A stretch of 64,000 nt of DNA, counting the filler, from Asterionella formosa (Eukaryota), in NCBI GenBank assembly GCA_002256025.1. It is 5 parts of 5 records of this genome, joined end to end, with 100 filler letters (N's around TTAATTAATTAA, not from the genome) between each part and the next. Parts side by side here need not be neighbours in the genome. Positions count along the whole stretch, not along the records: positions 52,546 to 64,000 come from NKIB01008493.1; 4 more parts are not named here. The stretch is one strand, 5' to 3'. The notes below the pieces were generated by a model. It had not been told where the DNA came from. It searched no databases and saw nothing but the letters and a program-made list of their open reading frames with translations. Positions 1 through 64,000 of this stretch are shown piece by piece (positions within the stretch are counted from its first letter, which is position 1; every line of letters begins with the position of its first letter). Position numbers and translations under genes: made by a program.

Positions 1-220
1 AGCCATTTCGTTTTCATTGGATTTCTTTTCAAGCTCTTAACAGTTTGCATACAAACATACTGTGCACTGTAGATGATGATCAATCGAAAACATATGATGA
101 CTTGAACGACAAATGGAGATTTTGTCACAAGCCCTCGTTCCTCTCAACATGGCTGTTTTGTCATTGTTGCAAGAATCAGAGTGAGGATTGGAGAGGATGA
201 TGAACCAAACCACATTATTT

Positions 221-440
221 TAGCTGGCACATTATCCTACCAAGATATTTAAATAAAGGAACCTAATAGAAACAATACATATAATAATTAAATATACATA
301 GTCAAAAGGGTTACTATTTAAATTATGTGGGCATTTATCAAAATTATTACATAATATAACGAAAAATTATGATCAGATGATCATACTAAGCAATCCTACT
401 ATGATGCATCATAGGAATATGATTGTTTTTATTTGCAGAC
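221..440. repeat. AT-rich dispersed repeat; diverged inverted copy at 63790-64000
   Basis: The reverse complement of 63790-64000 aligns along its length (e.g. gtcaaaagggttactatttaaatta, aacgaaaaattatgatcagatgatca, tttttatttgcagac). Confidence 0.9.
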
Positions 441-684
441 ATGTCCAACCCATTCAGGCGATGATGAATTCAATGATAGCTTCAAATGTGCTATCAAGGC
501 AGCAATCATTGCAATCTCCAAGCAAAACAACACCGAGTACAAATGCACAACCATCTTCATCTGCATCTATAGAATTTCAAACCCCAAATGATAATGATGG
601 TGACAAAACAAAAGCAGTAGTAGTGATGACGAATAAGTTAAATGAATATAGTAAATCTAAGTCTTTGAAAAATTACTCTATGAC

Positions 685-1888: not shown

Positions 1889-2494
1889 GGTCAGAGACTG
1901 ACACTGATGAAATTATGGATAACATGTATTCAGTGTACAAGAGGAGGCGTGACACACCAGAGAATGCGTCACTATGAACATTTAACTGTTATAAATTAAA
2001 GTTAAATTAATATTTACTGTGAGATAAGTAATCAAATATAATTCGAGTATCAGAGCGCAATGACGATGTTATATACCGGTATTATATAGCAAAAGATATT
2101 TGTGAAGTAATAATTTTGGCACAAATTTTATTTTGGTATTTCGAAGCACGCCCAGGATAACCTGACATAAGCTAGATTATAGGCAAAGTGGCATAACACG
2201 TAACACTACATATGTGTTGACATGGCCACACTTTGATACATATACTTGAGCTTAAACAGTTCTTTATGATTTCTTCTTTTACTTTGATCTCTCCTCTTGA
2301 ACGTTTGCTTCATCTTTATCTCTTCACGAGATCTTTACACATAGGTAAAAGGAAACAAATTGCAGAAAAGGCTGGCATCTCTCTTGGAATCAGCTTCAGT
2401 CCGTTCACTACTGGGACAGGCAAGAACAAAGTTGGTGCAGCTATTTAAACAAAAACACAAATTAAAATTATGTAGAAACATTACAAGAAAGCGA

Positions 2495-4684
2495 TCATTG
2501 GGACAGAGTCTGCTGACGGCCATCGGCCAGGGCTTTGATGGCTCTGGCGGCATCTTCAGCTTTGGGCATGTTCATTTGTTGCAGGCAAAAGTTTTCAGGC
2601 TTGCCATCTCGCGTTATATGATGAGGAACCTCATACAGCATCTGCGCCAATTGGCGTTCCTCTGGAACTGTCCCTCGCTCATACAGACTCATGAGTAACA
2701 AGTCCCCTTCAGTGTGGACAGCTGCGCAGTGAGCTTTACCCAAAGTCACACAACAAGTTGCGGCCAACTTGGCATGGGCAAGCTCCTCTTTAGTAACGTT
2801 ACCACGCTTGTCGAAGTGGCAGTTGAGAATGTACATGATGCTGTCCAAGATACCTTCGTCGAGTAAGAGGCGAGCCCGCTGTTTGTCTTTTGAGTGGTTA
2901 ATAATTTCCTCCATGGCCTCGTTCTTTTCCTCCATAGTCGTATTTACCGACGCCATGACATCCAGCCACGCCCTAGGTTGTTGGGAGGGCTCCAAGCCAT
3001 GAATTTGCTGTACTGGTACAATCCTTCCGTTCCTCAAGCACGCCACACGCCGATTTTTAGACTGCCCTTGACTAGGCTTTTCATGTGATACACTCGTACC
3101 CTTGACACTGCGATCATCGCCCTTTACAACATTATCGGACTTTCGAATAGTCGAAACTTCATCTTTCGTCATACGCTCGTCTGATTGAAAGCACTGCTTC
3201 ATCTCCATCGGAAGCTTGTTGTTAGTCTCGTGAAATCCTGCTGCACATGTTGACGACAAGGCTTCACTCGCATTCATTGCTGACTCGTGCGCTCGCTGGA
3301 GAGCGGCAGTCGCCTTGGTTCGGACGTTATTCCGCTGTTCCACTGGAATTTGCATGACACCAACGCCTATCCCGACCGTTGCGGCACCCACCAAGAGGCC
3401 GACAGGACCCAGAATCAAGGTTCCAACGGTAGCGGCAACGGCAACACCAGCAGCTGTCTTCACGACTGGTGTGTCCAGAGAGTGGCAGTAGTGCTCGACA
3501 TCTGCCCGAGTCAGCAATGGAGATGCGAAATTTGGATCTTCCACTGATTCTTTCTTTTGATAAGCAGCGGCTGCTTGTCGATTTTCTTCGAATCCAACGG
3601 AATCTTCTTGATCAAAGATTACTGAGTCATCTTGGTCGCTGTCGCGGTCCCCGTAGTCAAAAGTGTCATCGTCCCTGGGCGGTGGAGTGAGAAGATGGGA
3701 TGAGTTTGCGTGCAAGTCATATTGAGACCGGGAACCCTCCGTTTCGTAAGAACTACTGGACATACTGCGTGTCATGACAGAAGGTCTGCGTCCTTCTGGG
3801 AGCATATCGCCCTTGCGCAGTTTCGGCATGACAGGAGCATCCATTATTTGACGAACACTCGTCAACGTGGCTTCGTCGTCAGTAGGGTCGACCGGAGAAT
3901 GCCTCGAATACGTAGGATGGCTAAATACCAATGGTGTCGATCGCGTTTCCACATATTCTTGGTCTACGTTTTGCTGGAGTTGTCCTCGGGATCGTTGCTC
4001 ATATGGACGGCCCATTGAATTCCTGTTAGATTCCTTGCTGATTGAATGACCACCAAGTCCATCAGAGGATGATCTGCGATTGGCTGATTCGGGCGATGGC
4101 TGCTGCCGGCGGGAGGATTGCTTTGGAACTCTCGTTGACGAGTCATTGACTTGGGGAGGTGGTCGAGTGCTGTTCCTCTCAGTTGTTCGAGTACCCTCTT
4201 CTGTTCGATGAACTTGCTTGGCCTTACTGAGTTGCATCTGTTTCCTTTGTTGCCTGGCTCGTCGTCGTTCTGATAACGACGCTGGTGCAGATTGGCGGGA
4301 AGACGAGGCCCCCGGCGACCCGCCTGGCGACGACACTTCTTGTGATGACCCACCTGGTGACGACATGTGTGGTGTCTCTCCAGTGCGATCTACTTCCTTT
4401 TGCAACCGGCTTCGCCTCAAATGAGAGGTAGTACTTGTGGTCGACGCATTGTCACTCATGTCGACTCTCGCCAAGGCGCTCAAAATAGCCTCGCTTCGTT
4501 GTCGATGATCCGATAAGCCACTTTCCGATCGTGGCCCAGTGAGTCCGCTGACTCGCGACAGATCGCTTTGGTTGCGAGAGACTCTCACTTCGATGCCGTG
4601 TTTAGGTGAATAAGGAGGGGGCTCTGTGCGTTTTCCAGCATTCTGGGCTTCGAAGGACGCAATGCGACTTCTGACGATTGACAT
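2495..4684 (-). CDS. Hypothetical protein (~730 aa): disordered Ser/Arg-rich N-half, Gly-rich hydrophobic hairpin, helical C-terminal domain
   Basis: Uninterrupted 2.3-kb ORF; first plausible ATG at 4684 (MSIVRSRIASFE); segment AAGVAVAATVGTLILGPVGLLVGAATVGIGVGVM. Confidence 0.75.
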   Translation of the reverse strand: MSIVRSRIASFEAQNAGKRTEPPPYSPKHGIEVRVSRNQSDLSRVSGLTGPRSESGLSDHRQRSEAILSALARVDMSDNASTTSTTSHLRRSRLQKEVDRTGETPHMSSPGGSSQEVSSPGGSPGASSSRQSAPASLSERRRARQQRKQMQLSKAKQVHRTEEGTRTTERNSTRPPPQVNDSSTRVPKQSSRRQQPSPESANRRSSSDGLGGHSISKESNRNSMGRPYEQRSRGQLQQNVDQEYVETRSTPLVFSHPTYSRHSPVDPTDDEATLTSVRQIMDAPVMPKLRKGDMLPEGRRPSVMTRSMSSSSYETEGSRSQYDLHANSSHLLTPPPRDDDTFDYGDRDSDQDDSVIFDQEDSVGFEENRQAAAAYQKKESVEDPNFASPLLTRADVEHYCHSLDTPVVKTAAGVAVAATVGTLILGPVGLLVGAATVGIGVGVMQIPVEQRNNVRTKATAALQRAHESAMNASEALSSTCAAGFHETNNKLPMEMKQCFQSDERMTKDEVSTIRKSDNVVKGDDRSVKGTSVSHEKPSQGQSKNRRVACLRNGRIVPVQQIHGLEPSQQPRAWLDVMASVNTTMEEKNEAMEEIINHSKDKQRARLLLDEGILDSIMYILNCHFDKRGNVTKEELAHAKLAATCCVTLGKAHCAAVHTEGDLLLMSLYERGTVPEERQLAQMLYEVPHHITRDGKPENFCLQQMNMPKAEDAARAIKALADGRQQTLSQ

Positions 4685-5539
4685 GACGATGTGTGGAAGT
4701 TCGGGGTATGAACAGGAGCTACCTGCGGAAATCAGTAAGTATACCGGTAGTTCGCTTCCTTGTGACGGCGAAGAGAGTGCACCAATTCTTGAGCAACGGC
4801 AAATCAAAGAACAAGCAACGAAAGAGACAACGATGGAACGTTCTCCTTTCTAGAATGCTCTTCTGTCACAACTTTCCAGGTATGTACTGGTAGTTGTGTA
4901 TTTTGGTTTTTATGCACGGTGAAATTGGGTTCACATTGTTGCCGAAGTGCGCGAGAGCGTATCGTGTTGCCGGGGCTGAACTGGCAGCCAGCTTACAGAC
5001 GAAATCTCAACTGTATATTTTATATATGTCAACTCTTTGCTGAGGCATTGGCACTATCATTGAAGATACTCGGTAGTCTGTGGTAAGTACCTGGTACTCC
5101 TAGATACCAAAGTACTGGTACCACGGCAAATTCTTTACGCAGGCTCTAGTGGGCCTACCGGTACTCAAGGCGTTTTCCGTTGGAGACCAGGAGAGGCGTG
5201 CGCTTGGAAGCCGGATGGCGTGCAGAGAAAGGTACGAGAAGAATAATTGACGTTCCCGCAAAAAATTTTAATTTTGGTGATGTCGACCGTATACAACCAC
5301 ACCGCAGACACCACAAATTCTTACTATCGCTCAGTCACCACCTTGATGCCGTCCACGCTACCCCTGGTACCAGGTACCTGGTACCCTGGTACCTGATAAT
5401 AGGTACCTCAGGTAATCACAACGTACGGGAGAACGGTGTGTACATTTTTGGGGTCATCATCAAGCTCTGTATGGACTTGCGCCCCTTAACTTCTCAGATT
5501 TGTCTCTCTCTATTTAATGCTGGTGCCCAGTAAGTTTTT

Positions 5540-5620
5540 TGCGGTCATTTTGCTAAAATAAACAATTTAAAATAGGATAAAGAAAGCTAAAGTTTTAGTT
5601 TCAGCACAAGTACCGCCACT
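5540..5620. repeat. Dispersed repeat fragment shared with 26741-26820
   Basis: gcggtcattttgctaaaat(a/c)aacaat(t/c)taa...aagaaagctaaa occurs at both sites in the same orientation. Confidence 0.75.
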
Positions 5621-6549
5621 TTGACAGCTCGTGTACAGGTGGCACCAGGTACCTATATATACTGGTATATAAAAGTGACTTCGGGTCAGGCATCTTGACT
5701 TCCCTTTCGTGTACCGGTTGTGGTAACCGTATGAACCGTGCAGGTACATACGGTAACCTCCGTACTTCCTCGCGACGCGGAAAATTCCTTAGGTGGATCG
5801 TGGACAGACCTCGGTATATTTATTCCAAATGTCTGGCGGAATTGGTAGTCGCGCGTTCTTCTGCGAACACATGCAATATGTTGTGCTTCAAACTAGGCAT
5901 ATGCAAAGAGCAATTAATTTTGATGGTAAAAAGAATTCTAACTTTTTGCATTGTTTTTTAGCTAAATCAATTTCGTTTTGTCACTCCAAACAAGAGAAAG
6001 GAAATGAGGGTCAATCGAAAACCATAACATTCATTTGTCAGCCAATCTTGGCCACATTTTAGACTAAAGCTTTAACATTCTTTATGGTGAGCTTCAATCT
6101 GACATGTGACATGATTGGCTGAGAGATGAAGAAGTTGAAAATTGCGAAGTAACAATAACATATTTATTGACTTTTAGATCTGGTATGCTTCAACCACATG
6201 GAAACAGCATGTAGAAGCAGTTTCATCACAATAAAGCTCCTAGACAAACCACTCATTAAAAAAAAGAGGATTGTTACAATGATGAGCTTGATTCAAGCAG
6301 CAATTACTCTACTGCTAACTGGGATGTTTTGCCCCGCTTTTCCACAGTGCTGTTGACCTTGAAGCATGCTAACCGCATGCCATGAGTGCTACCATTTTAC
6401 AGAAATAAATCGAAAAGTTGTCTTTATTTGAATGAAGCTTGTGGAAACAACAATGAATGGGTTGAAAGCACCCTCTTCATCCAACAACCAACAAGTGCCA
6501 CAATGGAAATGTCACCCACTAACAAGGCATCAAATGCTATCACAAGCGC

Positions 6550-6864
6550 CACAACAGCAACACAAAACATCTACAAAATCAAGAGCAAGAGGAATGTTTT
6601 CAACACACACAAGTGACAACAAGCGCCCAAAACAAGTAACAAGCACGCAAGCGCCGAAGTGACAATGATACCGGAAGATCTCAGTGCCAAGAACCAACAC
6701 AAGGCATAATGAGCACCACAACAGCAATCATGACATCTACGAAATCAAGACCAGAACAAGCAAGACAATTTTCACAACACACAAACGCCCTCAAGAAGCA
6801 ATAACCAACAAGCACAATGGTACCAGAAGATCTGATTGCCAAGAACCAACACAAGGCATAATGA
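6550..6864. repeat. Imperfect tandem duplication (~150-165 bp units)
   Basis: Both units run from cacaacagcaa...catctac.aaatcaaga to gccaagaaccaacacaaggcataatga. Confidence 0.7.
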
Positions 6865-7599
6865 TAATCAAGCAAGAAATAAACGATTTCATTAAGAAAT
6901 ACATTGTTAGCATAATACTACTCCTTTACACTATAGCTTCAATGGCGCTTTTTTGTTTGATTGATTTTCGACTAGAAATAGTGAAGCTCTACTAGTCCTA
7001 GCAAATACGACTTACTGTCACACCATGATACATGAAAGATATACGACGATACTGTCCCTATTTTTTTATGACAAACTTCACCCGTTTACTGTAACAGTCG
7101 TACATATTCTCCAAGCAATGAATCCAAATAGATAGGACTGTTGCTTTTTAGATCCGTAGTGGTCTTTAAAGTTACCGCCATGGTTGTTTGAAAATCACTA
7201 CCGGTGGCTTTGTCGTGTTAATTGATTCTTAGGGGTATCAAGTCAATTTTTACCAATAATTATTACAGAGCATTTTTCATTCAGTTAGAAGCAGTCAATT
7301 TGGAAAGAAGAAAATTGCTAATGCTCTCGTCGGATCAATGCGCAACTGTTAGAACATAACTAATTCATGAGTGGTTTTGATCTTTCAGGATAATTGAAAT
7401 CAAACAGTATAATTGTTGTAAGTTATAAATAACATTGATGGAAAGATTTATGTGCTCTTGTGCGATATTCGACTGACACGTTATTATTCAGAAATATTCG
7501 AAAATACATAAGTCAATCCAGAATGGGAATCATTTGTTGTGGTGTAAACAAGCAATACAAATGTAACAACTTGCTGCTTCTCATTGTCACTATGATTAA

Positions 7600-9460
7600 G
7601 ATATCAAAATGAATTGTAAATGGAGAAGCATCTCATTTCGATAGCACCTATTCAAAAGAGCAAACGGGCAATCATATGTAAACTGAAGTAAGACATAAGA
7701 GGATAAACAAGCAAACAGTGGTGATATGAGGAGGGAAAGCAGAACAAGAAGGTAGATGAGTAGTTGGCGAACAATTCCTTTCGAATTTGAGTGACAGTGA
7801 GGACAGTTGGTTTGTCTGCAATCGATGTGAGAAGTGTGGGAAGCAAGGGAAGGCTCAGTAAAAATCGCCATCGAGCTACAGTAATCAAAGAACAAGCGAT
7901 GGTGTTGTCATAGTTTAAGGTTGGCGGCCGAAATGACGGTTAGCAGGTTGAAAGATAGAAATGATTTCTAATTATAGTAAAATTAAAATCTATTTCACCA
8001 TATTCACTTTGTTTAGAATTAAGATCATGTTATGATAGATTTATGGTGAAAAATGTACATCATAGGATAATGTTTTGATAATTATATGGTTTGTTATTTA
8101 TTATAAGTATGCTTGTCATGATCATATACATATTCTATACATTTATCATACATATAACAAATAAGTATCATGTGGCAAAAAATTCTGTGCCACATATCAT
8201 AAAATAACCATGATCTTCTAAATAGGATATTTTTATTGCAGATGATGTCGCGTGACTATTGCGTTTTCCTTGCCTTGGCCATTCATCTTGAGACATAATG
8301 TATGGAGTAAGGTGCATCACCCAAAAATCCATCGGTGTTGTCGCTAAGAACCAACGATAGATCAAATGCTAAAAGAAAATCTTATACAATTCTGCGCGAT
8401 GATGTATGGGAAAATCGAGGGTTCAAATGAATGAACAATGGTTTAATTGGCACACACACCCTTCGGAAGTAAACATCAAAACATGCAAGACAAAATGGCT
8501 GCTCTAGGGATGACGTTGCGCTCCATGTACGCTGGAAACGGTGCACAGAACAAGTTGACACTTACATTGATGTTGATCTAACCTATCCAGACGCCAAAGT
8601 TGCGATAGCCCTTTGTATTGGCGCCTCATGTAAGTATCATGTCAAAACAGTGTGTCTGATGATTGGCTTCTGCAATATGTAGCGCTGAATATACGCATGG
8701 AGTTTCCACGCGATGTGGCACTGACGCTGGCATGTCCACTGCTTTGGGCGGTTTTTGGAGCCAAGTCTACAGGGCTTCTTACCAGCAGGCAAGCTGACAC
8801 ACCGGATCCAGATGGCATATGCACTTGTAAGTAATCTTCCAAAAGGTATAAATACTGTGGGAAAACGGCTAATTTTTGTCAATGGTGCAGAGGCGGAACT
8901 CTACATAGACGATATTGGGGATCCAGATGATTTTTGGACAATGTGCTGAGAAAAAGTGGCTGCAATGTCAATAGGAGTAGCTGCAGTGTCAACAGGACAG
9001 ATTGGAGGAGGAGGCGGACAGCACCAAAAACAACAATCCATCAACGCATTTAGTCAGAGAAACGAGAACAAGAATGAAGTCCTTGGGCTGTACTCACAGC
9101 AAAGGGAGTCTCAACGGTATGTGAAAAAGATGCATTGCCAGCTTGCTATCCTTACGAGCACCATGAGTAAGGGGATGTGCAAGATGCAGACAAATTTAAA
9201 TCGACTTTCCCAAATGCCAGCACAAATGCTCAGGGGCAATGTTTCTACTGTTGCTTCCAGTGTAACAAATGCCAACAACAACCCAAATTCAAACATCGAA
9301 AATTTTGCTGTAGGAACCAAGAACAACAACCATGCAAGCAATGATGACAAACAGCCATGGCTGTAGATCCTGTTTATAATAGTAGCCTTTCCAAGACAAA
9401 AAAAACACTATTTGTTCTTTGGCACGAATGGGAAGAAATTGGAATTGCAGGACGAAAGAA
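7600..9460 (+). mobile_element. Degenerate Crypton (tyrosine-recombinase DNA transposon) with GCR1_C-like tail
   Basis: Manual translation gives DYCVFLALAIHLE (~8250) and LIGTHTLRK*..ARQNGCSRDDV..RWKR..QVDTYIDVDLTYPDAKVAIALCIG (8443-8620; HxxR, W and Y catalytic positions), then LACPLLWAVF and LSKTKKTLFVLWHEWEEIGIAGRK (GCR1_C-like). Multiple stops and frameshifts; the 5' boundary is approximate. Confidence 0.8.
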
Positions 9461-10097
9461 GCATTACATTCTCATTTCATTTACAGTATACATTATCACG
9501 TCATTGTTATATTCGCATTACATGATAGCATGCATAACCTGGTATATTATGGCTATTTATACATACAAGCTATATTTAAGATATATATATTTTACCTGTG
9601 TGGATGCATGTGAGGTGACTTTAAACAAGTACCAGCTACATGGTTCTACCGGTACTGGGTACACAGTGTAAGTTTGTACGACATCAACATTTTGCCGCCC
9701 CATCTGCAGTCGTATTTGGACTCTCGCCATCACTCTCCACATTTACTTGTACTGAACATAATTAATATCCGAGACATCACAGACAATCTGATACAGTACA
9801 GGTTCTCTACAATATATATATTTCTATATACCGGAATATATATCATTGATCAATTTCGTCACAAGGGGAGAAGTTGTAAATATACTCCTACATAATATAT
9901 ATGTACCGGTACCACCCCGCCTGCCCGTGGTAGATAAAAAGCACGTTCACCGCAATTTTTAATCATCTTTTTTTTAATGTAGCCTCTCTGATAAATGAAT
10001 CAAAAGATACTTGAACCTATATTGCTGCTTGTCATCTGTGATTTATCTGGTGCTGATTTGCTGTTTAGTAACTAAACGCTATACCACATCCTCATCC

Positions 10098-13049: not shown

Positions 13050-13149
13050 NNNNNNNNNNNNNNNNNNNNNNNNNNNNNNNNNNNNNNNNNNNNTTAATTA
13101 ATTAANNNNNNNNNNNNNNNNNNNNNNNNNNNNNNNNNNNNNNNNNNNN
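13050..13149. other. Artificial contig spacer (N-TTAATTAATTAA-N)
   Basis: 100-bp N run containing an all-frame stop linker; identical to the other three spacers. Confidence 0.97.
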
Positions 13150-14030: not shown

Positions 14031-14424
14031 TCCTCTCTCTCACGCAGCATCCGAACGATCGACAATTGAGTACAAAGTTATGTTATGTATCACTGAGAGG
14101 TCACAGATAGAACATTAGGCGGCAACAGCACGGAAAATGAAAAAGCATCGACTGTCAGTGATTGCTCACAGCGTGGGGGGGGGGGGGGGAGGGGGGGCGG
14201 GGGGGAGGGGGAGGGGGGGGGGGGGCGGGGGGNNNNNNNNNNCCCCCCCCCTACCGATACCGATTAGGCGATCTATGTCTAAGTAAGGAAAAATGGCTCC
14301 ATTTACTTTAGAACAGTATATAAAGGAGTCTAATGGTCGTCATGAGATTACGGAACTGAGCTTGAACATGGGTGAAAAGGACGTACTAAGAAATGTTTTT
14401 CTAGGTAGTTTTCATTGTTCCCTA
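14031..14424 (+). pseudogene. Decayed tandem duplicate of the NDUFB4-like gene with a poly-G/poly-C tract in its intron
   Basis: tcctctctctcacg.agca.ccga, taggcgat.tatg and aatggtcgtc.tga.attac.gaa.tga match 13464-13790; no start ATG and in-frame stops. Confidence 0.85.
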
Positions 14425-26195: not shown

Positions 26196-26295
26196 NNNNN
26201 NNNNNNNNNNNNNNNNNNNNNNNNNNNNNNNNNNNNNNNTTAATTAATTAANNNNNNNNNNNNNNNNNNNNNNNNNNNNNNNNNNNNNNNNNNNN
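26196..26295. other. Artificial contig spacer
   Basis: 100-bp N-TTAATTAATTAA-N. Confidence 0.97.
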
Positions 26296-39330: not shown

Positions 39331-39430
39331 NNNNNNNNNNNNNNNNNNNNNNNNNNNNNNNNNNNNNNNNNNNNTTAATTAATTAANNNNNNNNNNNNNN
39401 NNNNNNNNNNNNNNNNNNNNNNNNNNNNNN
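39331..39430. other. Artificial contig spacer
   Basis: 100-bp N-TTAATTAATTAA-N. Confidence 0.97.
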
Positions 39431-40980: not shown

Positions 40981-41388
40981 TTTACCTACCACTAGTTTTA
41001 ACTTCTAGACCCCCGTATCAGGGTTGAGTAGAAACGGGAGTCCTAGGCAAAGCGGGTACAGAATACCGGTAAATAGTCAACTATTTTATCATTTTATCCC
41101 GGGATGAATAAATTTATCTGGCACAAAAGAAAATAGGAGCTGAAATGACGAGACAACATGACACCAACATTTGCTTGTCACGACTCCCATGTATAAAATG
41201 TATCACAATTTTAAGTTGTAGACTACGTCGGTACTCCACCGAGTACCAACTTGATAGTTCTACTTGATTGATGCATAGGCACTGCTACAATTTGCCTTGT
41301 CGCTGCACACAATTGATAGCCAACCAACCACCCCTGCAGTCTAGCACATTGCAGCCAATGTTCGCATTGCGCAATGCACACAAAAAAC

Positions 41389-42921
41389 ATGTTTTCTCCA
41401 ATATTTCGAGGGCCCAAATTGGCGCTCGTTCGCTTCTCGAGCTGCAATAGCAAGGTCCTCTCGTCAGTTCAAGAAGCTCTTTCCAAGGTCCCCTCTCTTG
41501 AAAACGTGACTGTGTGTATCGGAGGCTTTGGACTCGGAGGCAACCCCGAGACTTTCTTGAGTGCTCTCTCCGAACATGACGGCACTTCCAATCTCACAGT
41601 CGCGTCGCTGACGGCAGGCATCGATGGCTTTGGTCTTGGCAAACTCATTGAAGGGGGGAAAGTCAAGAGAATTATTTCCAGCTATGTCGGGGAGAATGCG
41701 GAACTCGAGAAGAGATACTTTAATGGATCTCTACAGGTCGAACTGACGCCTCAGGGGACCTTGGCGCAGCGCATGCAGGCAGCAGGGGCTGGTATACCTG
41801 CATTCTTTACTCGAACTGGGGCCGGAACGATTTATGCCACTGGAGGCATTCCTATTCAGTACACATCAGACGGATCTGGAGATGTACTAGTCGAGAGCAC
41901 TCCAAAAGTTACGCAAGAATTTGATGGACTGGAATATGTCATGGAACTAGCCCTCAAGGCTGACGTTGCGTTTGTCAAGGCTTGGAAGGCCGACACTAGA
42001 GGTAATCTTGTCTTTCGAGGAACAGCACAAAATTCGAATCCAGATGCTGCAATGTCGGGAAAGATTTGTTTGGTGGAAGCAGAGGAAATCGTAGAAGCGG
42101 GGGCGTTGCACCCCAATGAGATTCACCTTCCTGGTGTATACGTCGACCACGTGATTCTAGCGACAGAAAATGAAAAACACGTAGAACGATTGCGATTGGC
42201 TTCTACCGGAGGAAGAAATGGGGTCGTGAAGGGAGGGCGGGGAAGAATAATGAGACGAGCCGCCAAGGAGTTCAAGGATGGGATGTATGTCAATCTTGGG
42301 ATTGGGTTGCCGACCATGGCGAGCAACTACATTCCGGAAGGGGTGAAGATTGAATTGCAAGCCGAGAATGGTCTCATGGGCATTGGACCCTATCCTGCTT
42401 CGGAAGCAGACGCTGACGCGGATTACATCAACGCTGGAAAAGAAACTATTACTGCCTTGCCAGGAGCAAGTACGTTTAGTTCGAGTAATTCCTTCAACAT
42501 GATTCGAGGGGGACATATTGATTTGACTATATTGGGAGGACTTCAGTGCAGCGCTACAGGAGATCTAGCTAACTGGATTGTACCGGGTAAGCTTGTCAAG
42601 GGTATGGGAGGCGCCATGGATTTGGTCGGCGCTCAAGGCACTAGGGTTGTTGTGACTATGGACCATACGGCAAAGGATGGTTCACCTAAAATTCTTCAGG
42701 TTTGTTCCCTTCCGTTGACTGGTCACAAAGTGGTGGACAGAATCATTACTGATGTCGGGGTCTTTGATTGCGACAAGCGCGGTGAGGGTGGTTTGACCTT
42801 GGTTGAGATTGCCCCTGGAATGACTGTTGCGGATGTTAGGGCCTGTACTGGGGCGGACTTTAAGACTGTACCAGAGCCCATTCCTCTCATGGATGACCAT
42901 ATCGACGAAGATCATGAGTAG
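41389..42921 (+). CDS. OXCT1: Mitochondrial succinyl-CoA:3-ketoacid CoA transferase (SCOT, fused alpha/beta)
   Basis: [57 protein letters not shown], catalytic [23 protein letters not shown]; presequence-like N-terminus. Confidence 0.96.
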
Positions 42922-52445: not shown

Positions 52446-52545
52446 NNNNNNNNNNNNNNNNNNNNNNNNNNNNNNNNNNNNNNNNNNNNTTAATTAATTA
52501 ANNNNNNNNNNNNNNNNNNNNNNNNNNNNNNNNNNNNNNNNNNNN
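52446..52545. other. Artificial contig spacer
   Basis: 100-bp N-TTAATTAATTAA-N. Confidence 0.97.
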
Positions 52546-57895: not shown

Positions 57896-59220
57896 ATTTA
57901 ATTTAATTTAATTCAGAATGTGCAAATGTATGATGATTGCTAGATTCAATATAAACATGATAAAATGTAAGAAATAATGATTTTGAAGCCAACTAGCTTT
58001 ATACTGTTGACTAATCAAACCATAGAGAGATATTACGGATACATATTGTCTACCGGGTACCATGAGAAAAGGCAGCATACTATTGTTCTTAATTGAGTGA
58101 AACCTCCTTTGTAAGTGCGTGTACAGTGGTACATATACTAGATATAAATTTATAGCAATTGGTTTCTCCTTAAATATTGGTTGAAAAGTGCAATCAACGA
58201 AAATATTGCCAGAACACGGATTACCCCATGTTTTGGGGATTCATTGTTATATGATACACGCAGCTCAATAGAAAAATATCGCCTTCGATTTATTTGTTGT
58301 CTGATTCCTGTCATATCCTTGTCCCTGTCACTTGATAGTGCCTAAGTAACTTGAGAATTATAAACTGGCGCCCTATCACACATAAACTTGAAAGGAAATG
58401 TGTACATACCAGTGTGCGATTTTTAGCTCGTAATATGGCAAAAAAGGTATCGAGCAAGGCGGCTCAGTCTATTCGCAGCACAAACAAAGCCAGGATGATT
58501 GAACATTGCCTATTGAACATCTGCTACATAATCCTGGTTCATGATGATTGAAGACAGTATAAAAATACCAGTAGTAGTATTGATTTTACCTACTGGTATT
58601 CAGTGCATCTAATATGTGTGGCTGGCGTCAACCGATCAGAATATGTGTAGTGATGAGGGAAGTAACACAGGAGTCTTTTTGGACAGAGAGATATCCAGCA
58701 AAACATACCTACACAAGACTCTAAGTATACAAGAATATTTTTGCATGTAAAAATTCAGATTCCAATATTTAAAAAGCCAATTTGGTGGACATTTTGGAGG
58801 ACAATTGCTCTTCATCTATGGGTTTCATGAAGAATAATATAAATAGCTGTGTACCCTATAACGTCAGGAGTTAACTTCTGCAGAGAAGTGGCAGTTATCT
58901 CCCATAGATTTTGAAAAGGAGGTTTGTAACCCCCTTTTTTGTCAAGAATATTAGCTTGATTCACAGGGAATGTAGACTCAATTGTAATCCAACAAGTCAA
59001 ATCTTGCATTGCCACATCAATCAGGAAAGAAGAGGTGTCTATCATGGTCAGATGGAGGTACCATTCAACTTGAGTACTACATAGTAGGTACACCTGTAGA
59101 GTCATAGTCACCTTTTGAGTGTAGTAATTCAGTATGCTCTTCACTTTTCCACATGTGCAGAACTATACATAATCTTCAAAGCATTATTTGCATGTGGAAT
59201 GGTTTTGGCTAATGAAAACA

Positions 59221-59860
59221 GGAGTAGAATCTTTGGCACAAAAGACACATAGTTAACAACTTTCCTTCAGGTTAAGATTGTCAAAGGAAATTATCATTTG
59301 TGGCAATTCACATCTCATAATATGATCCTAGAAGTCAACCCAACTTTTCAACCAATTCAATAGTTGTTGGTCTACTTTTGCAAATGGTCTGAATGCAACA
59401 AATGGCTAATTTGATGTTTCAACTCAATTCTCACATAAAGTGCAGTTATTTTTATGTTCCATTTTTGCACTGAAAAATGTTGGCAACAGAACTTCTTTTC
59501 TTTGGCAAAGTCTTTGGGTTAATGGCTGCCTGTTCAGAAGTGATGGTTTATAGAGAGCTCACAATAATTATAAAGGTGCAATCTGATCAACTTCACTTGT
59601 TCACTATAGTTATTTTTGATAATTATTGCATTGTCTATATCAGCTTTGCATTGCAATTCCCAAAAAGTAGAATCTTGGCACACAAGACACATTGTTAAAT
59701 GCTACCATTCAGGTTATGATTGTCAAAGGCAGGTATCATTTATGACAATTCACATACCCCATTATGATCTGTTGGCCTTACAAGTCGATCACTTTTCAAC
59801 CAATTAAAAAGTGTTTGGCCTCCTGTTGCGATTTCTCTGAATGCAACGAATGGCTAATGT
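59221..59860. repeat. Diverged direct duplication (59221-59410 similar to ~59665-59860) of the kinase 3' region
   Basis: gtagaatctt.ggcaca.aagacacat.gttaa, gattgtcaaagg, caattcacat, ttttcaaccaatt and tctgaatgcaac.aatggctaat occur in both copies. Confidence 0.8.
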
Positions 59861-62094
59861 ACACACCGAGGCCAGAATTCCATCATCCCAATTCTTTGCT
59901 AGAGGATCAACATCTTCTACCAGTTTTAGAATTGCCAACACCAATGCCTCATCAATGTTTCCTTCAAATTCATCTGGGAAGTATCGTTCATAGAAATCTC
60001 CCAACCTTGTCTTATCATTTTGGAGGCAGCCTGTCACAAGCTCAATCATGACAATGCCAAATGAGTAAACATCACATGATGCTTCAAATTTTTTACCGCC
60101 CCTAGAATACCATGGACATTTGTAGCCAGGTGTCCCAAAGACTCCACCATTTAATGAATTCTGAACTGACATCGAAATTGCATTGCCATCGTTAGGCACA
60201 AACTTGGAAAGGCCACAATCAATCAGCTTGGCAGTATAGTTATTTGAAAGCCAGATATTAGCCGATTTTATGTCACGATGAAACAGACCAAGGTAGTCCT
60301 TTCTTTTAGTATGAAGGAAGTGGATGGCAGAATTAATGTTGTAAATGATTCGAAGTCGGATCTCACTTGAGAGAGTTGCTCTGCTTTGTTCGCTCTCATA
60401 AAATTTATCAAGAGAACCCTTGGATGCATACTCAAACACAAAGTATTGATTGGGCGAAACAGAGGACAAACGATAGCCATACAAAGATACGATATTGGGG
60501 TGTCGGAACCTCTTCAATGCCTGAAACAGTATCACAGTAGAATGAGAAACAGAAAGTCTTAAAAACATGCAATATTTGATACCACGAATGAGCTCACCTC
60601 CAATTCAGTTTTATCTTTCTTCACAGCAATGTCATAATAGAAATGTTTAACAGCAAAAACCCGATTGTCATACTTGCCTTGGTAGACAACACCAAAAGCT
60701 CCTACACCAAGTTTCAAGGAAACATCAAGGTTGTTTGTAAAACTTTCAATGAATTTCATAGGAAACCTGATTGGTTTTGAACTCTCATCATCAATAGCTT
60801 CCTTTATTTTCAACCAAGCTTCAGAAGTGAGATCAGAATTGAGATCAGTTGGATTGCTACTGCGTAGTGTTCGAGTTGCGGGAGAAGGAAGATGAGCGGC
60901 TTTTTTTGTTATTCGAGGAGTGGGCGCTGGTGGTATCGGAGGTGTAGGCCCGTTTTCATCTTCAATCGGGGTTGGAGGTACATTAGGGGTGACAAGTTGA
61001 GCCTCCTTTGTTTTCTCAACGCAGATCTCCAGTTTTACATAAATTTTACTCTTATTGCTCTCGTTGCAGAACAGTCCATTCCTCGCTGTCTTGCCGAATA
61101 GCACCAACCCTGCATGTTTGGTTCGCTGTTTAAGTACTTCTCGATCGAACTTGACAAATGAACTCTGAACGCCTACCCCGAGCGTCCCCAAAGAAACCAC
61201 CTGCTGAATTCCGCCACTTAGGTTTCCCTGAACCCGACTGCTGTCCTTGGATTGTTGAAAATTGTCAATATCTACCCTGTTGTTCGCTCCTACATAGCTT
61301 ATCGTGAAGGTAGCACGCTGTATCACTGAGTCTGTCGTCAACCGACAGCTTTTGAAACGATATCCTGCTGGTATGTGGTGTACAACTTCCTTTGTTTGCT
61401 TACTGTTAAGTATCATGATAGGCCCTTCAAGCCATTGTTCTGATGACGGCACTTTCTTCTTACGCGCGCCCCCCAACAAGCCGGCCTTGCCCAAGTACAC
61501 ACACGGCGCGTAGGGAGGATGGGCAGTAGCCATGATATGAATGCGAGATCTAGATGCCCAAACATCTTGGCGCTGCAAATCTGCAAGCAGCATCCCGATG
61601 TCTCCGGAGCTCACCACAGGTAGGGTGCGCTTGTGCGTACTGGTACCTATGCCAGCCAGAAGTACCGCCTGCCACTGACCACCCACCTGCCTAAACAGGA
61701 CACGCTCGCCATAAGAAGCAGTAAAGAGCTTGGAGGGGTGATGGACATTGGAGATGCCTACAGCCCGAGAATGGATATCAGCAACTTGAACTTTGGCAGC
61801 ATCTGACGCCGGTGGCAAAGACTTAACCCCATCAACGCGCGCCAACGAGGCCGATCCCACAACCGCTTGCTGGGTTGTGCGCAAGAGATGCTCTTGGGAT
61901 TCTTTCGGGCCTTCGGTGGTACCACCAGAGGGTGTGAGTACGGTAGAGGAGGAGGAAAGATGCTGGTACGGAGATGCTAGAACAACACCACGCACAGCGG
62001 AAGGCAACACGGCTGTGAATTCTTTGAGAGAAAGTTTAGTCAAACTTGGATCATTCGTTTTCAACCGTTCGACATCTTCTTCCCATATAGGCAT
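59804..62094 (-). CDS. Chimeric Pelle/IRAK/RLK-like (TKL) protein kinase; 2 exons (62094-60598, 60520-59804)
   Basis: LGVGAFGVVY, FAVK, TELE/ALKRFRHPNIV across a GTGAGC..TTTCAG intron, HRDIKSANI, LIDCGLSK, GTPGY, DVYSFG, RRP; long composite N-terminal extension. Confidence 0.88.
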
Positions 62095-62469
62095 TGTCAA
62101 TGTCGTCTTGAATGTAATGGAAGTTGTCTATTGTGTTGACGAGCGACTTTTTTCTTGTTCAAGTGAAGAGTGAAAAGTGTTTTTTTGTGGTCAAATTTCT
62201 TTTCTCGTGCTGCCAAAATAATGTCGCTCGTGTTTGTAATTCTTGACTACAGCGAACTGCTAGAACAAACACTTGAATGAACAGGAGAGATCAATGATCT
62301 CGATAGCAAAATTACGAAGAAGCGATGACAAGTCGAATAAACTGAAATTATGATGTTAAAACTAAGTTGAGACGAAAAAGGTAACCTTGGTGTAAATGAC
62401 TCTGAAAAGGTAGAAACAGAGTAGGGTAGTAGTTGCGACTTGATTTGGGAGAGTAGAGTCTACACAACA

Positions 62470-63790
62470 TGAATTCTTATGCTGTAGCTCTCAATATCCA
62501 TTGTCGTAGAACGAGGACGCGACCGCAATGAACGAGGTCAAGCAAAGGAATTCACACTGGTGAGTGTGTGAATGAGGGAAGAGTAGTGGGAATGTAGATT
62601 TGTAGTAGGAAATGTACGGGAGCAATAGTCCTTTCGGGACCGGTGTTATCTGTGACTAACTGGCACTAAGGCATAATAATCGGGTCACATACGGGAGCAA
62701 TAGTCCTTTCGGGACCAGTGTTATCTGTGCGTAACTGGCACTAAGGCATAATAATCGGGTCACGGCTCTCCCTCTCGAGGAAGTGAGACAGCACCAGCCC
62801 ATTAAGAGTTTCCGAAGGGCTTGATACTTGACACGATCAAGTCCTTTTGTAAAGATATCTAGAGTATTCTTACTGCTTTCAACCTTAAATATTTTGATTG
62901 TCCCGTTGGCAACATGTTCGCGAAAGAAGTGGTATGGGACAGCGATGTGTTTAGACCGATGAGTCATTCTTAGTGAGGTGGCTAAAATTAAAGCCCCATT
63001 GTTATCCTCAAACACGGATGAATACGTAGATGTAAGAAAAGAAGGATCATTCATCAACGATGATGCAACTTCTTCGACCAAAGATTTTAGTGGTAGAAGA
63101 CTGCGCATACTTGTACTGAGTGCAATATATTCAGCTTCCATAGTAGAAAGCGCGACTTATCCCTGTAGCTTGGATTGCCATATGAGGGGACAGTTTGCAG
63201 GAGAAATGACAAAACCTGTACGCGATTTAACAAATACTGGATCTTAGTCATCTTCGCGTCTCCACAAACCTGCATGGTACGCGTCAACATACGTATCCAG
63301 ACCGAGTTTCTTGGTAGGTCGCAATATTAGTCCTTGTGTAGATGTCCCATTTAGGTAGCGGCAGATTCGCCGGATGGCTTCACCATGGGACACTTTAGGC
63401 GAGTGTGTGAAACGTGCGCACTGATGCACAGCGAAAGAGATACCAGGGCGCGAATTCAAAGCTAGGTAGAGAAGCATTCCAACAGCAGATGGGTAGCTGA
63501 TTTCGTCAACAAATGTGTTGCCAAGTAGATCGGTTCCAAGAGCAGTTGAGCTCGCTGGAGTATCCTTTGCATTGCAATCCTGCATAAGACAAGTCCTGAG
63601 GATTCGATCAATCAAAGCCGTTTGAGTGAGGAACAGGGATCCATCCTCTAACTCATCAATTTGAATACCAAGAAAGCAGGAAATGTCTTTGTCCATTGTT
63701 AGTTTAAACTCTTTGCCCAAATTAGCAATCATTGTATCAATTTTCGTGACATCTTTTCCCAGATAGATTAAATCATCAACGAAAACAACG
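62470..63790 (-). mobile_element. Ty1/Copia retrotransposon 3' part: RT C-half, RNase H, PPT and 3' LTR
   Basis: FVDDL, FLGIQI, YPSAVGMLLYL..SRP.ISFAVHQCARF, YVDA, EAEYIALS, FEDNNGA, RSKHI..YHFFRE, DIFTKGL, LMGW; PPT gagagggagag near 62766-62776. LTR outer end approximate. Confidence 0.92.
62615..62763. repeat. 75-bp tandem duplication inside the Copia LTR
   Basis: tacgggagcaatagtcctttcgggacc...cgggtcac occurs at 62615 and 62690. Confidence 0.93.
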
Positions 63791-64000
63791 TCTGCAAATA
63801 AAAACTATCATATTTCCATGATGCATCATAGGATTGTGATCATCTGATCATAATTTTTCGTTATATCATCTATTAATTTTGATAAATGCCTTTGTAATTT
63901 AAATAGTAACCCTTTTGACTACATATATTTAATTATTATATGTATTGTTTCTATTTGATTCCTGTATTCGAATTTCTTGGTAGGATAATGTACCAGTTCA
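63790..64000. repeat. Inverted copy of the 221-440 repeat, abutting the truncated Copia RT
   Basis: Homology begins immediately before the codons for VVFVDD. Confidence 0.88.

What the first reader, a model, noticed from the sequence alone, without database searches (positions are those of the whole stretch)
59804..62094. Mosaic Pelle/IRAK-like kinase containing an endosymbiont-type (Amoebophilus/Cardinium-like) domain
Seen, in one open frame: (i) MPIWEEDVERLKTNDPSLTKLSL, the usual cap of RNI/NLRC3-like LRR proteins but with no LRRs after it; (ii) a visibly GC-richer block (~61440-62010) encoding FTASYGERVLFRQVGGQWQAVL..RTLPVVSSGD..LQRQDVWASRSRIHI..PYAPCVYLGKAGLLGG; (iii) a beta-rich unknown domain; (iv) a Pro-rich linker; (v) an AT-rich RD kinase with a spliceosomal intron. 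From memory, block (ii) matches the conserved N-terminal region (T..G..V.F.Q..G.W.A.V..LPV..IH..VY.G..GL.GG) that precedes diverse effector domains in Amoebophilaceae proteins. Inference: a bacterial endosymbiont effector leader was captured and fused into a host kinase, possibly as an integrated decoy or sensor. Its GLLGG end resembles a ubiquitin-like cleavage site.
Basis: partly seen in the sequence, partly recalled or inferred. Interest (0 to 1): 0.8.

Follow-up and report, generated by a model that had tools for sequence, protein, structure and literature searches.

The report
Diatom kinase carrying a symbiont-derived module
A freshwater diatom gene encodes a signalling kinase whose usual sensor part has been replaced by a two-domain module otherwise found only at the front of surface proteins of tiny intracellular Amoebophilaceae bacteria, suggesting the alga took a piece of a symbiont's toolkit and wired it to its own signalling.

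Summary
At 59804-62094 (-) lies a two-exon gene of 737 codons. It has an LRR-type cap, about 340 residues of bacterial type, a Pro-rich linker and a complete RD kinase split by a 77-nt GT..AG intron. The bacterial part comprises a linker, "block ii" ending GLLGG, and a jelly-roll "block iii". It has 60-77% identical relatives that begin with a signal peptide and lipobox and end in varied domains (STAND NTPase-TPR, TIR, ANK, HEAT, lysozyme).

Their genes sit beside bacterial housekeeping genes in 0.9-1.9 Mb Amoebophilaceae genomes. They occur in 16 of 48 genomes of that family and in no other Cytophagales genome sampled. This fits the published "Amoebophilus prodomains" APD1/APD2.

Host genes in the window are diatom-like. 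Independent DNA and poly(A) RNA contigs bridge the bacterial block, the kinase and the spliced intron, so it is not an assembly chimera. Diatom copies form one clade inside the bacterial family, which fits a single bacterium-to-diatom transfer that replaced the LRR sensor of a cap-LRR-kinase gene.

A role as a sensor or docking kinase for such bacteria is inference. A ubiquitin-like fold for block ii was not found.

The parts
62020..62094 (-). Res 1-25: host-type N-terminal cap of RNI-like LRR proteins (MPIWEEDVERLKTNDPSLTKLSL); no LRRs follow
   Evidence: It aligns with the cap of the diatom LRR-kinase P0245 (res 2-23 vs 9-30, pairwise E 0.05). Contig depth over 62036-62149 is hundreds of times that of neighbouring bins in the DNA run X7, so it is a multi-copy module. 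GC is 40%.
61735..62019 (-). Res 26-120: low-complexity linker of bacterial type (AVLPSAVRGVVLASP...), GC-rich
   Evidence: tblastn to MAG locus L002 starts at res 29, and blastn gives 77% over 71 nt. The same motif follows the lipobox in P0004 and P0010. The segment is 92% identical to P0003. AF2 pLDDT is low for the part modelled.
61468..61734 (-). Res 121-209: block ii, the APD-like domain ending VYLGKAGLLGG
   Evidence: Relatives. Nucleotide identity to Amoebophilaceae MAG loci is 76-81%. All 17 of 17 columns that are >=85% conserved among 146 other family members are kept. The AF2 model has the order bbb-aa-bb with pLDDT 85-94 in the core. GC 57%, GC3 61%.
61003..61440 (-). Res 219-364: block iii, a jelly-roll/CUB-like beta sandwich, also of bacterial type
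   Evidence: HMMER matches span query 120-265, both with and without block ii. tblastn to L004 covers res 121-374 at 42%. AF2 pLDDT is >90 over most strands. VIA gives Z 8.2, a generic jelly-roll level. Diatom copies form one clade with SH-aLRT 96.
60775..61002 (-). Res 365-440: Pro-rich linker and juxta-kinase segment, host type
   Evidence: Collinear with the linker of the LRR-kinase P0245 (res 371-483 vs 335-466, pairwise E 0.004).
60598..60774 (-). Res 441-499: kinase N-lobe (GVGAFGVV, FAVKH), end of exon 1
   Evidence: Pfam Pkinase positions 5-42 (E 0.073 on this short piece alone). P0003 aligns through this segment.
60521..60597 (-). Spliceosomal intron, 77 nt, GT..AG, phase 0
   Evidence: Sequence. 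A poly(A) RNA contig of run X4 (376 nt) joins 60597 to 60519, skipping 77 nt, with 27 letters on the short side (table 5). P0003 reads through the same junction in frame.
59804..60520 (-). Exon 2: kinase C-lobe (HRDIKSANI, DCG, GTPGYKCPWY) and stop codon
   Evidence: Pfam Pkinase 2e-26 and PK_Tyr_Ser-Thr 5.8e-22. The best solved relatives are plant RLCK/RLK kinases and IRAK1/4. The closest named relatives are diatom kinases at 40-46%.
59233..59410 (-). Duplicated remnant of a kinase 3' end and 3' UTR (reads ...RPTTIELVEKLG*)
   Evidence: Direct repeats of 95 and 68 nt at 80-82% identity, spaced 442-448 nt. Translation.
62615..63804 (-). Upstream flank: 75-nt tandem duplication (62615-62763) and a copia-type retroelement fragment
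   Evidence: TRF finds 2 copies at 95% identity. Pfam RVT_2 scores 2.6e-10 on 63247-63804.

Best explanation
SHOWN. This is an expressed, spliced nuclear gene of a pennate diatom and it encodes a chimeric protein. Its parts are: a host LRR-type cap (res 1-25); a ~340-residue module of Amoebophilaceae type (linker, block ii ending GLLGG, jelly-roll block iii); a host Pro-rich linker; and a complete RD kinase of the RLK/Pelle-IRAK-like kind.

In the bacteria the same module follows a signal peptide and lipobox. It is the constant front end of a large family of proteins with varied C-terminal domains. This is the arrangement published for Amoebophilus prodomains APD1/APD2.

INFERRED, about 85% likely. 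One bacterium-to-diatom transfer put the module into a cap-LRR-kinase gene in place of the LRR sensor. The gene then duplicated.

INFERRED, about 35% likely, and the mechanism I commit to. The stolen module still makes the contacts that it makes on the bacterial surface. Those contacts are either homotypic clustering with sister effectors or binding to their common anchor or target. The cytosolic kinase would therefore dock onto such bacteria or their effectors and signal. Fast-diverging block iii would be the recognition surface and conserved block ii the scaffold.
For: Gene model and kinase.

Bacterial relatives. 41 proteins at E 5.5e-48 to 3e-14. 149 cluster representatives at E<=1e-3. 87 of 179 fetched homologues have a strict lipobox-like N-terminus, and 111 of 179 by a strict or loose rule.

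Genome distribution. Genome loci lie in Amoebophilaceae MAGs beside HisRS, MetRS, IleRS, L25 and Pth. There are 22-38 profile matches in each of four 0.9-1.1 Mb genomes. The block ii profile hits 16 of 48 genomes of the family. It hits 5 of 201 Cytophagales genomes, and all five are in that family.

Varied C-termini. NB-ARC/NACHT/AAA-TPR, TIR, ANK, HEAT, lysozyme and FtsK-like domains appear, and no Pkinase, in 134 representatives scanned. Only P0003 has a kinase.

APD description: PMC3482391 and PMC3417536, passages read.

Host identity. A CoA-transferase gene in the window is 70-73% identical to those of named pennate diatoms. The kinase relatives are from Fragilaria, Amphora and Epithemia.

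Contiguity and expression. DNA contig X7 rec 28 spans 60581-61539 with 2 differences. Poly(A) RNA contig X12 rec 7 spans 60872-61605 with 0 differences. A contig of run X4 is spliced. Neither RNA run covers the flanks 62378-62700 or 59300-59527, while the DNA runs do.

Single origin. The window and P0003 pair in the block ii tree (SH-aLRT 86), inside a 121-row clade (98). Four diatom-type block iii sequences form one clade (96).

Donor-like composition. Block ii is 50-59% GC in the MAGs too.

Constraint. All 17 of 17 family-conserved columns are kept. Paralogue variants show 6 synonymous and 0 non-synonymous changes in res 67-90.

Sensor swap. The gene is collinear with the cap-LRR-kinase P0245.

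Mosaic divergence from P0003: linker 92%, block ii 81%, block iii 40%.
Against: Direction of transfer rests on distribution, unequal distances and unrooted quick trees with few columns (94 and 146). It does not rest on a rooted test.

One weak match lies in a 67% GC Dokdonella MAG (38% identity over res 41-110, E 4e-4). Another is a 13-residue match in a Bacteroidota MAG.

Identity with published APD1 or APD2 could not be checked, because the alignments are not held.

RNA evidence comes from contigs only. There is no strand information and no full-length transcript. The splice joint is in one contig with 27 letters on the short side.

Signs of possible decay. The gene stops where P0003 has Glu, and the homologous tail continues out of frame. 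It lies between a retroelement fragment and a duplicated 3' end. Relatives P0095, P0053 and P0042 look deleted, frameshifted or differently fused.

The 40% identity in block iii could reflect relaxed constraint rather than diversifying selection.

No function is known for the bacterial module. Papers holding both Amoebophilaceae and diatom number 7, and none by title or abstract describes such a symbiont in diatoms.
Confidence: 0.75

Rival explanations
1. Young, functionless by-product. A hugely expanded, recombining diatom kinase family picked up transferred bacterial DNA by chance. The chimera is transcribed but is drifting towards loss.
For: There is a premature stop relative to P0003, and the homologous tail is out of frame. 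The flanks hold a copia fragment and a duplicated 3' end. Relatives show block iii deleted (P0095), a frameshifted linker (P0053) or a different fusion (P0042). Block iii is only 40% identical between the two full copies.
Against: The 737-codon frame is intact and all catalytic motifs are present. The gene is spliced and present in poly(A) RNA libraries of two studies. All 17 of 17 family-conserved columns of block ii are kept in both the window and P0003. Paralogue differences in res 67-90 are all synonymous, 6 of 6. At least two full-length copies keep the same architecture.
Confidence: 0.17
2. Reverse transfer. The module arose in diatoms, or another eukaryote, and was taken up by an Amoebophilaceae ancestor, which expanded it.
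For: Amoebophilaceae carry many eukaryote-like domains (TIR, NB-ARC, ANK, HEAT) on these same proteins. The trees are unrooted.
Against: The module is in 16 of 48 family genomes, with up to 15 copies each, and family members are down to about 30% identical. Eukaryote-type copies are few and form one shallow clade nearest to one MAG's paralogues: 65-69% identical to loci of that MAG against 38-48% for three other MAGs. Block ii is GC-rich in the bacteria and stands out of the diatom gene. The diatom copy keeps the bacterial post-lipobox linker. Named diatom kinases carry LRR or ANK instead.
Confidence: 0.04
3. Assembly chimera or contamination. Bacterial DNA from a co-sequenced symbiont was joined to a diatom kinase exon by the assembler.
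For: There is a sharp GC change at about 62020 and a gradual one at 61000-61450. The samples are metagenomes.
Against: One uninterrupted frame runs from the host cap through the bacterial part into the kinase N-lobe. Contigs from three other studies bridge the junctions, in both DNA and RNA. P0003, from another contig, has the same order of parts. The nearest bacterial DNA is only 76-81% identical.
Confidence: 0.02

Closest known systems
APD1/APD2, 'Amoebophilus prodomains' of Amoebophilus asiaticus effectors (Zhang et al. 2012, PMC3482391; Aravind et al. 2012, PMC3417536; passages read)
   Same: The bacterial relatives have a signal peptide and lipobox, then a conserved N-terminal module, then polymorphic C-termini that include STAND NTPases. 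They are lineage-specific to Amoebophilaceae and expanded within each genome. The published prediction for the module is surface anchoring or homotypic clustering.
   Different: Here the module sits in a eukaryotic nuclear gene, without signal peptide or lipobox, behind an LRR cap and in front of a kinase. Which of APD1 or APD2 corresponds to block ii or block iii, if either, could not be checked. The nearest donors are GC-richer genomes of about 1 Mb.
Diatom cap-LRR(RNI)/ankyrin - IRAK-like kinase family (e.g. P0245; Fragilaria crotonensis 'serine/threonine kinase' P0209)
   Same: The cap, the Pro-rich linker and the kinase with HRDIKSANI and IDCGL motifs are shared. The kinase is 40-46% identical.
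   Different: The repeat sensor (LRR or ANK) is replaced by the bacterial module. The Cys-rich C-terminal extension of about 330 residues in those proteins is absent, because the stop comes right after the kinase.
IRAK/Pelle and plant RLK/RLCK kinases (solved: RIPK, PBL2, SYMRK, IRAK1, IRAK4)
   Same: These are the best sequence matches among solved structures, at E 9e-21 to 1e-16. The protein is an RD kinase.
   Different: It has no death domain, no transmembrane segment and no extracellular domain. It has DCG instead of DFG. Identity is only moderate.
Integrated decoys of plant NLR immune receptors (recalled knowledge, no call)
   Same: An immune-type signalling protein carries an unusual integrated domain tied to a microbe's effectors.
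   Different: Plant decoys copy the host target of an effector. Here the integrated piece is homologous to the microbe's own proteins, and the receptor is a kinase, not an NLR.
Domesticated bacterial effector genes in eukaryotes, e.g. dae amidases (recalled); Tox-REase-8 in arthropods (PMC3482391, passage read)
   Same: Effector genes of bacteria have been transferred to eukaryotes and kept.
   Different: Those are catalytic toxin domains used as such. Here the non-catalytic constant module was taken and fused to a host kinase.

Membership tests
APD1/APD2 (Amoebophilus prodomains) | [quoted passage not shown] | tested here: met
   87 of 179 fetched homologues match a strict lipobox-like pattern in the first 70 residues, and 111 of 179 by a strict or loose rule. 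Many of the rest are fragments. ORFs of L017 and L018 show the same arrangement.
APD1/APD2 (Amoebophilus prodomains) | Signal peptide and lipobox in the protein under study | tested here: not met
   The diatom protein starts with a hydrophilic LRR cap and has no Cys-lipobox. Bacterial homology begins at res ~26-29.
APD1/APD2 (Amoebophilus prodomains) | Constant N-terminal module joined to polymorphic C-terminal domains | tested here: met
   NB-ARC/NACHT/AAA-TPR, TIR, ANK, HEAT, lysozyme, FtsK-like domains, DUFs and a shared unnamed C-terminal domain are found.
APD1/APD2 (Amoebophilus prodomains) | Specific to the Amoebophilus lineage | tested here: met
   16 of 48 genomes of the family have matches. 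5 of 201 sampled Cytophagales genomes have matches, and all five are in that family. Exception: one weak match in a Dokdonella MAG.
APD1/APD2 (Amoebophilus prodomains) | Sequence match to the published APD1 or APD2 alignment | not testable with these tools
   The supplement is not held as text. There is no model in Pfam or NCBIfam.
RLK/Pelle-IRAK-like (TKL) protein kinases | Complete kinase domain with catalytic Lys, HRD Asp, Asn and D(F/C)G Asp | tested here: met
   Pfam Pkinase 2e-26. The motifs FAVKH, HRDIKSANI and IDCG are read directly.
RLK/Pelle-IRAK-like (TKL) protein kinases | Nearest characterised kinases are RLCK/RLK/IRAK | tested here: met
   The top solved matches are RIPK, PBL2, LysM-RLK, SYMRK, IRAK1 and IRAK4.
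IRAK/Pelle proper | N-terminal death domain | tested here: not met
   No Pfam family other than Pkinase is found in P0001 at E<=1.
Diatom cap-repeat-kinase family | LRR or ankyrin repeats between cap and kinase | tested here: not met
   No LRR or ANK Pfam match in P0001, whereas P0245 and P0209 have them.
Ubiquitin-like domain with C-terminal GG | Domain ends in Gly-Gly | tested here: met
   GLLGG is at res 205-209. Its G, L, G, G columns are conserved in 92-95% of 146 family members.
Ubiquitin-like domain with C-terminal GG | Beta-grasp fold | tested here: inconclusive
   The model of block ii alone has the order bbb-aa-bb. The fold searches gave only weak rows: best VIA Z 4.1 and best Foldseek E 0.24.
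Plant-type integrated decoy (NLR-ID) | The integrated domain copies a host target of effectors, in an NLR | tested here: not met
   The integrated part is homologous to the bacterial proteins themselves. There is no NB-ARC in P0001 or P0002.

The most novel reading that the evidence does not exclude
This diatom lineage lives, or lived, with an intracellular Amoebophilaceae bacterium. It has built a small, fast-evolving family of cytosolic receptor kinases that use a stolen copy of the symbiont's own effector-clustering module as bait. The module docks onto the bacterial surface or onto sister effectors and switches on IRAK-like signalling. This would be a new kind of innate immune or symbiosis-control receptor, made from the microbe's own parts rather than from a host target.
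Probability: 0.2. Interest if true: 0.9.

Novelty: new variant of a known kind. Interest (0 to 1): 0.78.

Why it matters
Bacterial genes in diatoms and domesticated bacterial toxins in animals are known. So are immune receptors with integrated decoys. Here the non-catalytic constant module of an endosymbiont's surface-effector family has replaced the sensor domain of a host immune-type kinase, and I found no report of this. The only papers naming APD1 with Amoebophilus are the two from 2012.

It points to an unrecorded association between freshwater pennate diatoms and Amoebophilaceae. It gives a handle on what the APD-like module binds. It also offers a testable model of how a protist might sense or manage intracellular bacteria.

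Tried and rejected
- **Own genome.** None is held, so paralogues could not be counted in the assembly.
- **Metagenome scans.** Two metagenome-contig scans, with P0001 and with the P0001/P0003 alignment, found no locus. The DNA of P0003 and of other paralogues was therefore not available, and no dN/dS could be computed.
- **Curated families.** Pfam and NCBIfam have no family for block ii or iii. A profile search against PDB sequences gave only chance-level rows, E >= 0.25.
- **Fold of block iii.** Only generic jelly-roll/CUB/capsid-like similarity was found: VIA Z 8.2 with many ties, and Foldseek best E 2e-3 to the Kex2/furin P-domain. No function follows from this.
- **Fold of block ii.** There was no convincing match: VIA best Z 4.1 and Foldseek best E 0.24. 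No ubiquitin-like chain appeared among the rows listed. The ubiquitin-like reading of GLLGG is therefore left without support, though it is not excluded.
- **ESM Atlas.** Best scores were 0.81 and 0.75, below the level that means anything.
- **Complex prediction.** The diatom module was tested against the module of the bacterial protein P0019. The verdict was 'no answer' (score 0.00, controls not run, partner fold uncertain). This is neither for nor against binding.
- **Earlier findings of the scan.** Nothing on this genome or sequence. One unrelated lipoprotein family came up by words.
- **Rfam.** No family in 58500-64000.
- **Second copy in the window.** No second copy of the module was found.
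- **Uncovered stretches in the RNA runs.** I use these only as a contrast with the DNA runs, not as proof of transcript ends.
- **Antisense frame.** The 127-aa frame at 61790-62173 (+) was considered and set aside. It is a by-product of the GC-rich coding strand and has no separate evidence.
Full report
**1. What is there**

On the minus strand a frame opens at ATG 62094 and runs uninterrupted to 60598 (499 codons, P0001). After a 77-nt GT..AG intron (60597-60521) it continues in 60520-59807 (238 codons, P0002) to a TAA at 59806-59804.

Pfam sees only a protein kinase: Pkinase 2e-26 on exon 2, with the N-lobe start on exon 1. It sees no LRR, no death domain and nothing for res 1-440. The kinase has the Gly loop, FAVKH, HRDIKSANI, IDCG and GTPGYKCPWY, so it is a complete RD kinase.

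The GC contrast is real. Res 31-209 are 56-57% GC (block ii GC3 61%), block iii is 45% and the kinase 36-41%. Seven other ORFs of the window have 44-52% GC and GC3 39-53%.

**2. The host is a diatom**

A single-exon CoA-transferase gene in the window (41320-42918) is 70-73% identical to those of Nitzschia inconspicua, Mayamaea and Seminavis, and up to 86% identical to unnamed sequences.

The closest named relatives of the kinase (40-46%) are from Fragilaria crotonensis, Amphora and Epithemia. Those proteins carry ankyrin repeats in front of the kinase. One relative, P0245, carries the same kind of cap followed by RNI-type LRRs. Most continue into a Cys-rich C-terminal extension. Among solved structures the best matches are plant RLCK/RLK kinases (RIPK, PBL2, SYMRK) and IRAK1/4. 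'Pelle/IRAK-like' is therefore fair for the kinase domain, but there is no death domain.

**3. The front part is of bacterial type**

Res 100-215 find 41 proteins at E 5.5e-48 to 3e-14, 55-88% identical over the aligned part. An exhaustive HMMER search with res 100-365 finds 149 cluster representatives at E<=1e-3 and 25 at E<=1e-30. Block ii (res ~121-217) and block iii (res ~219-364) occur together or apart in proteins of 125-3120 residues.

[quoted passage not shown] 87 of 179 match by a strict pattern and 111 of 179 by a strict or loose one. Many of the others are fragments.

Their C-terminal parts differ. They include NB-ARC/NACHT/AAA plus TPR, TIR, ankyrin, HEAT, phage lysozyme, FtsK-like domains, DUFs, and a shared unnamed domain of about 200 residues. 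No kinase was found in the 134 representatives scanned: 68 and 66. Four very long representatives were not scanned. In one search, P0003 was the only one of 9 with a kinase.

A scan of species-representative genomes gave 10 loci. Seven are in three MAGs titled Amoebophilaceae bacterium and one is in an uncultured Cytophagales MAG. There is also a 13-residue match in a Bacteroidota MAG and a weak match (E 4e-4) in a 67% GC Dokdonella MAG. The MAG contigs are truly bacterial. Next to the genes lie HisRS, MetRS, IleRS, ribosomal protein L25, peptidyl-tRNA hydrolase, an FtsX-type permease and an MraY-like transferase.

The four genomes are 0.9-1.1 Mb and have 22-38 profile matches each. A profile of block ii alone hits 16 of 48 genomes of that family. 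It hits 5 of 201 genomes sampled across the order, and all five belong to the family. In a single-contig genome of 1.88 Mb from the family, the hits are again signal peptide, lipobox, linker, then block ii ending Y(I/V)G..GLLGG, then a different C-terminus.

**4. Comparison with the literature**

Zhang et al. 2012 (PMC3482391, passages read) and Aravind et al. 2012 (PMC3417536, figure legend read) describe two 'Amoebophilus prodomains', APD1 and APD2. [quoted passage not shown] They are conserved N-termini on proteins with extremely polymorphic C-termini, among them Otu peptidases, F-box, U-box and STAND NTPases. The papers predict that they anchor effectors on the symbiont surface or cluster them by homotypic contacts.

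The family found here fits that description feature by feature. I could not see the published alignments, and neither Pfam nor NCBIfam has a model. Which APD corresponds to block ii or block iii therefore stays open.

**5. Not an artefact, and expressed**

The stretch is held by 20 listed public runs of 13 studies, 8 of them RNA. I laid four runs from three studies.

- A DNA contig (X7, 959 nt, 2 differences) spans 60581-61539. That runs from the intron start through the kinase N-lobe, linker and block iii into block ii.
- A poly(A) RNA contig (X12, 734 nt, 0 differences) spans 60872-61605.
- Poly(A) RNA contigs of X4 cover much of 60597-62055 with 0-1 differences. The listed pieces are 60597-60945, 61110-61260, 61247-61469, 61561-61775 and 61746-62055. 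Further contigs of this run were not listed.
- One 376-nt contig of X4 joins 60597 to 60519, skipping exactly the 77-nt intron. Its short side is only 27 letters.
- Neither RNA run covers the flanks 62378-62700 and 59300-59527, which the DNA runs do cover.

P0003, from another contig, has the same order of parts and reads through the exon junction in frame.

Depth over block ii is several-fold higher. The cap and the kinase are therefore modules of a very large family, and the bacterial module belongs to a small subfamily. Depth is a sum over contigs at >=90% likeness and is not a copy number.

**6. Origin**

The nearest bacterial DNA is 76-81% identical over 209-299 nt. Homology begins at res ~26-29, right after the cap, with the same AV.P.AVRG.V.AS motif that follows the lipobox in the bacterial proteins. 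It ends at about res 365. The cap and the stretch from the Pro-rich linker into the kinase are collinear with the cap-LRR-kinase P0245: pairwise E 0.05 and 0.004, which is weak. The simplest history is that the module replaced the LRR block of such a gene.

In a tree of 148 block ii domains the window and P0003 pair (SH-aLRT 86). They lie inside a 107-row group (90) and a 121-row clade (98) that otherwise hold lipoprotein-type and MAG sequences. In a tree of 64 block iii domains the four diatom-type sequences (window, P0003, P0053, P0058) form one clade (96) among bacterial ones. These are quick, unrooted trees on 94 and 146 columns.

Direction is inferred from four observations:
- the breadth and depth of the family in Amoebophilaceae against a handful of shallow diatom copies;
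- the unequal distances, 65-69% to the loci of one MAG against 38-48% to those of three others;
- the retained bacterial linker;
- composition, since block ii is 50-59% GC in the MAGs as well, above their own loci at 46-51%.

**7. After the transfer**

Between the window protein and P0003, identity is 76% in the cap, 92% in the linker, 81% in block ii, 40% in block iii, 49% in the Pro linker, 59% in the N-lobe and 71% in the rest of the kinase.

Both proteins keep 17 of 17 columns that are >=85% conserved among the 146 other block ii sequences. Variants seen in paralogous contigs are 6 synonymous and 0 non-synonymous in res 67-90, but 8 non-synonymous and 1 synonymous in res 50-66.

Other diatom-type relatives are a copy lacking most of block iii (P0095), a frameshifted fragment (P0053) and a different fusion (P0042). 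The front is therefore conserved or homogenised. Block iii diverges fast and the family is in flux.

**8. Structure**

AlphaFold2 with 68- and 71-row alignments gives confident cores (mean pLDDT 79.7 and 78.7). Block ii has the order bbb-aa-bb, with the GLLGG tail disordered. Block iii is an eight-stranded sandwich with two short helical inserts. Block iii resembles jelly-roll/CUB/P-domain folds only at a generic level.

**9. How it most likely works**

Shown: a cytosolic protein with no signal peptide that joins a bacterial surface-effector module to an intact RD kinase, and that is transcribed and spliced.

Inferred at about 35%: the module keeps its native contacts, which are either clustering with sister modules or binding to their common anchor or target. 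It would bring the kinase to Amoebophilaceae cells or effectors, with block iii as the variable recognition face. This differs from plant integrated decoys, which copy host targets.

Rivals are a drifting by-product (about 17%), reverse transfer (about 4%) and an assembly chimera (about 2%).

**10. Verdict**

The functional reading remains a hypothesis, and the ubiquitin-like idea has no support beyond the GG end. It is a new variant of known kinds of event: bacterial gene capture by diatoms, domesticated effectors, and sensor-domain swaps in immune-type kinases. I found no report of it.

Noticed in passing
window 59233-59410 vs 59675-59858: The 3' end of the kinase and its 3' UTR are duplicated 442-448 nt downstream, as 95- and 68-nt repeats at 80-82% identity. 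The downstream remnant still reads ...RPTTIELVEKLG*, like P0003. The gene's own copy has TAA where P0003 has Glu, and the rest of the tail is out of frame. A contig in DNA run X7 joins 59364 to 59837, skipping 472 nt.
   Followed up: partly
window 62615-63804: There is a 75-nt tandem duplication (2 copies, 95% identical) directly upstream of the gene. Next to it is a copia-type retroelement fragment on the minus strand, with RVT_2 at 63247-63804 and an RNase H-like ORF at 62659-63156 that has no Pfam hit.
   Followed up: partly
window 62036-62149 and 59984-60097: Summed contig depth in DNA run X7 is about 350,000 and 290,000 here, against about 400-500 for single contigs. The LRR cap and a kinase motif belong to very large gene families in this diatom or in its sample.
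   Followed up: no
proteins P0004, P0007, P0015, P0017, P0036 etc. (relatives, not in the window): Many bacterial relatives share a conserved C-terminal domain of about 200 residues with no Pfam family. It contains ...PCPFWP..VKDTHLLVLIP... and ends ...CLRKF. It is sometimes present twice in one protein (P0015, P0017, P0043). Its conserved His and Cys suggest a possible peptidase, but this was not tested.
   Followed up: no
L001 (MAG contig), 1-9751: Genes of the family lie in tandem arrays on one strand: at least three block ii-bearing ORFs, at 1-1206, 1522-2889 and 3089-4765. Further same-strand ORFs at 5625-7376 and 8231-9733 were not checked.
   Followed up: partly
window 13050-13149, 26196-26295, 39331-39430, 52446-52545: Paired 44-base runs of N recur about every 13,140 bases (plus a 10-base run at 14233-14242). 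They look like masking or scaffolding marks rather than biology. None lies in the gene.
   Followed up: no
diatom relatives P0189, P0192, P0194, P0200, P0209, P0245: The diatom kinases of this family continue after the kinase into a Cys-rich zinc-finger-like stretch and a conserved domain of about 250 residues (...CPTLVW.VPA...YF.CQHSF...) of unknown function. The window's gene and P0003 lack it.
   Followed up: no
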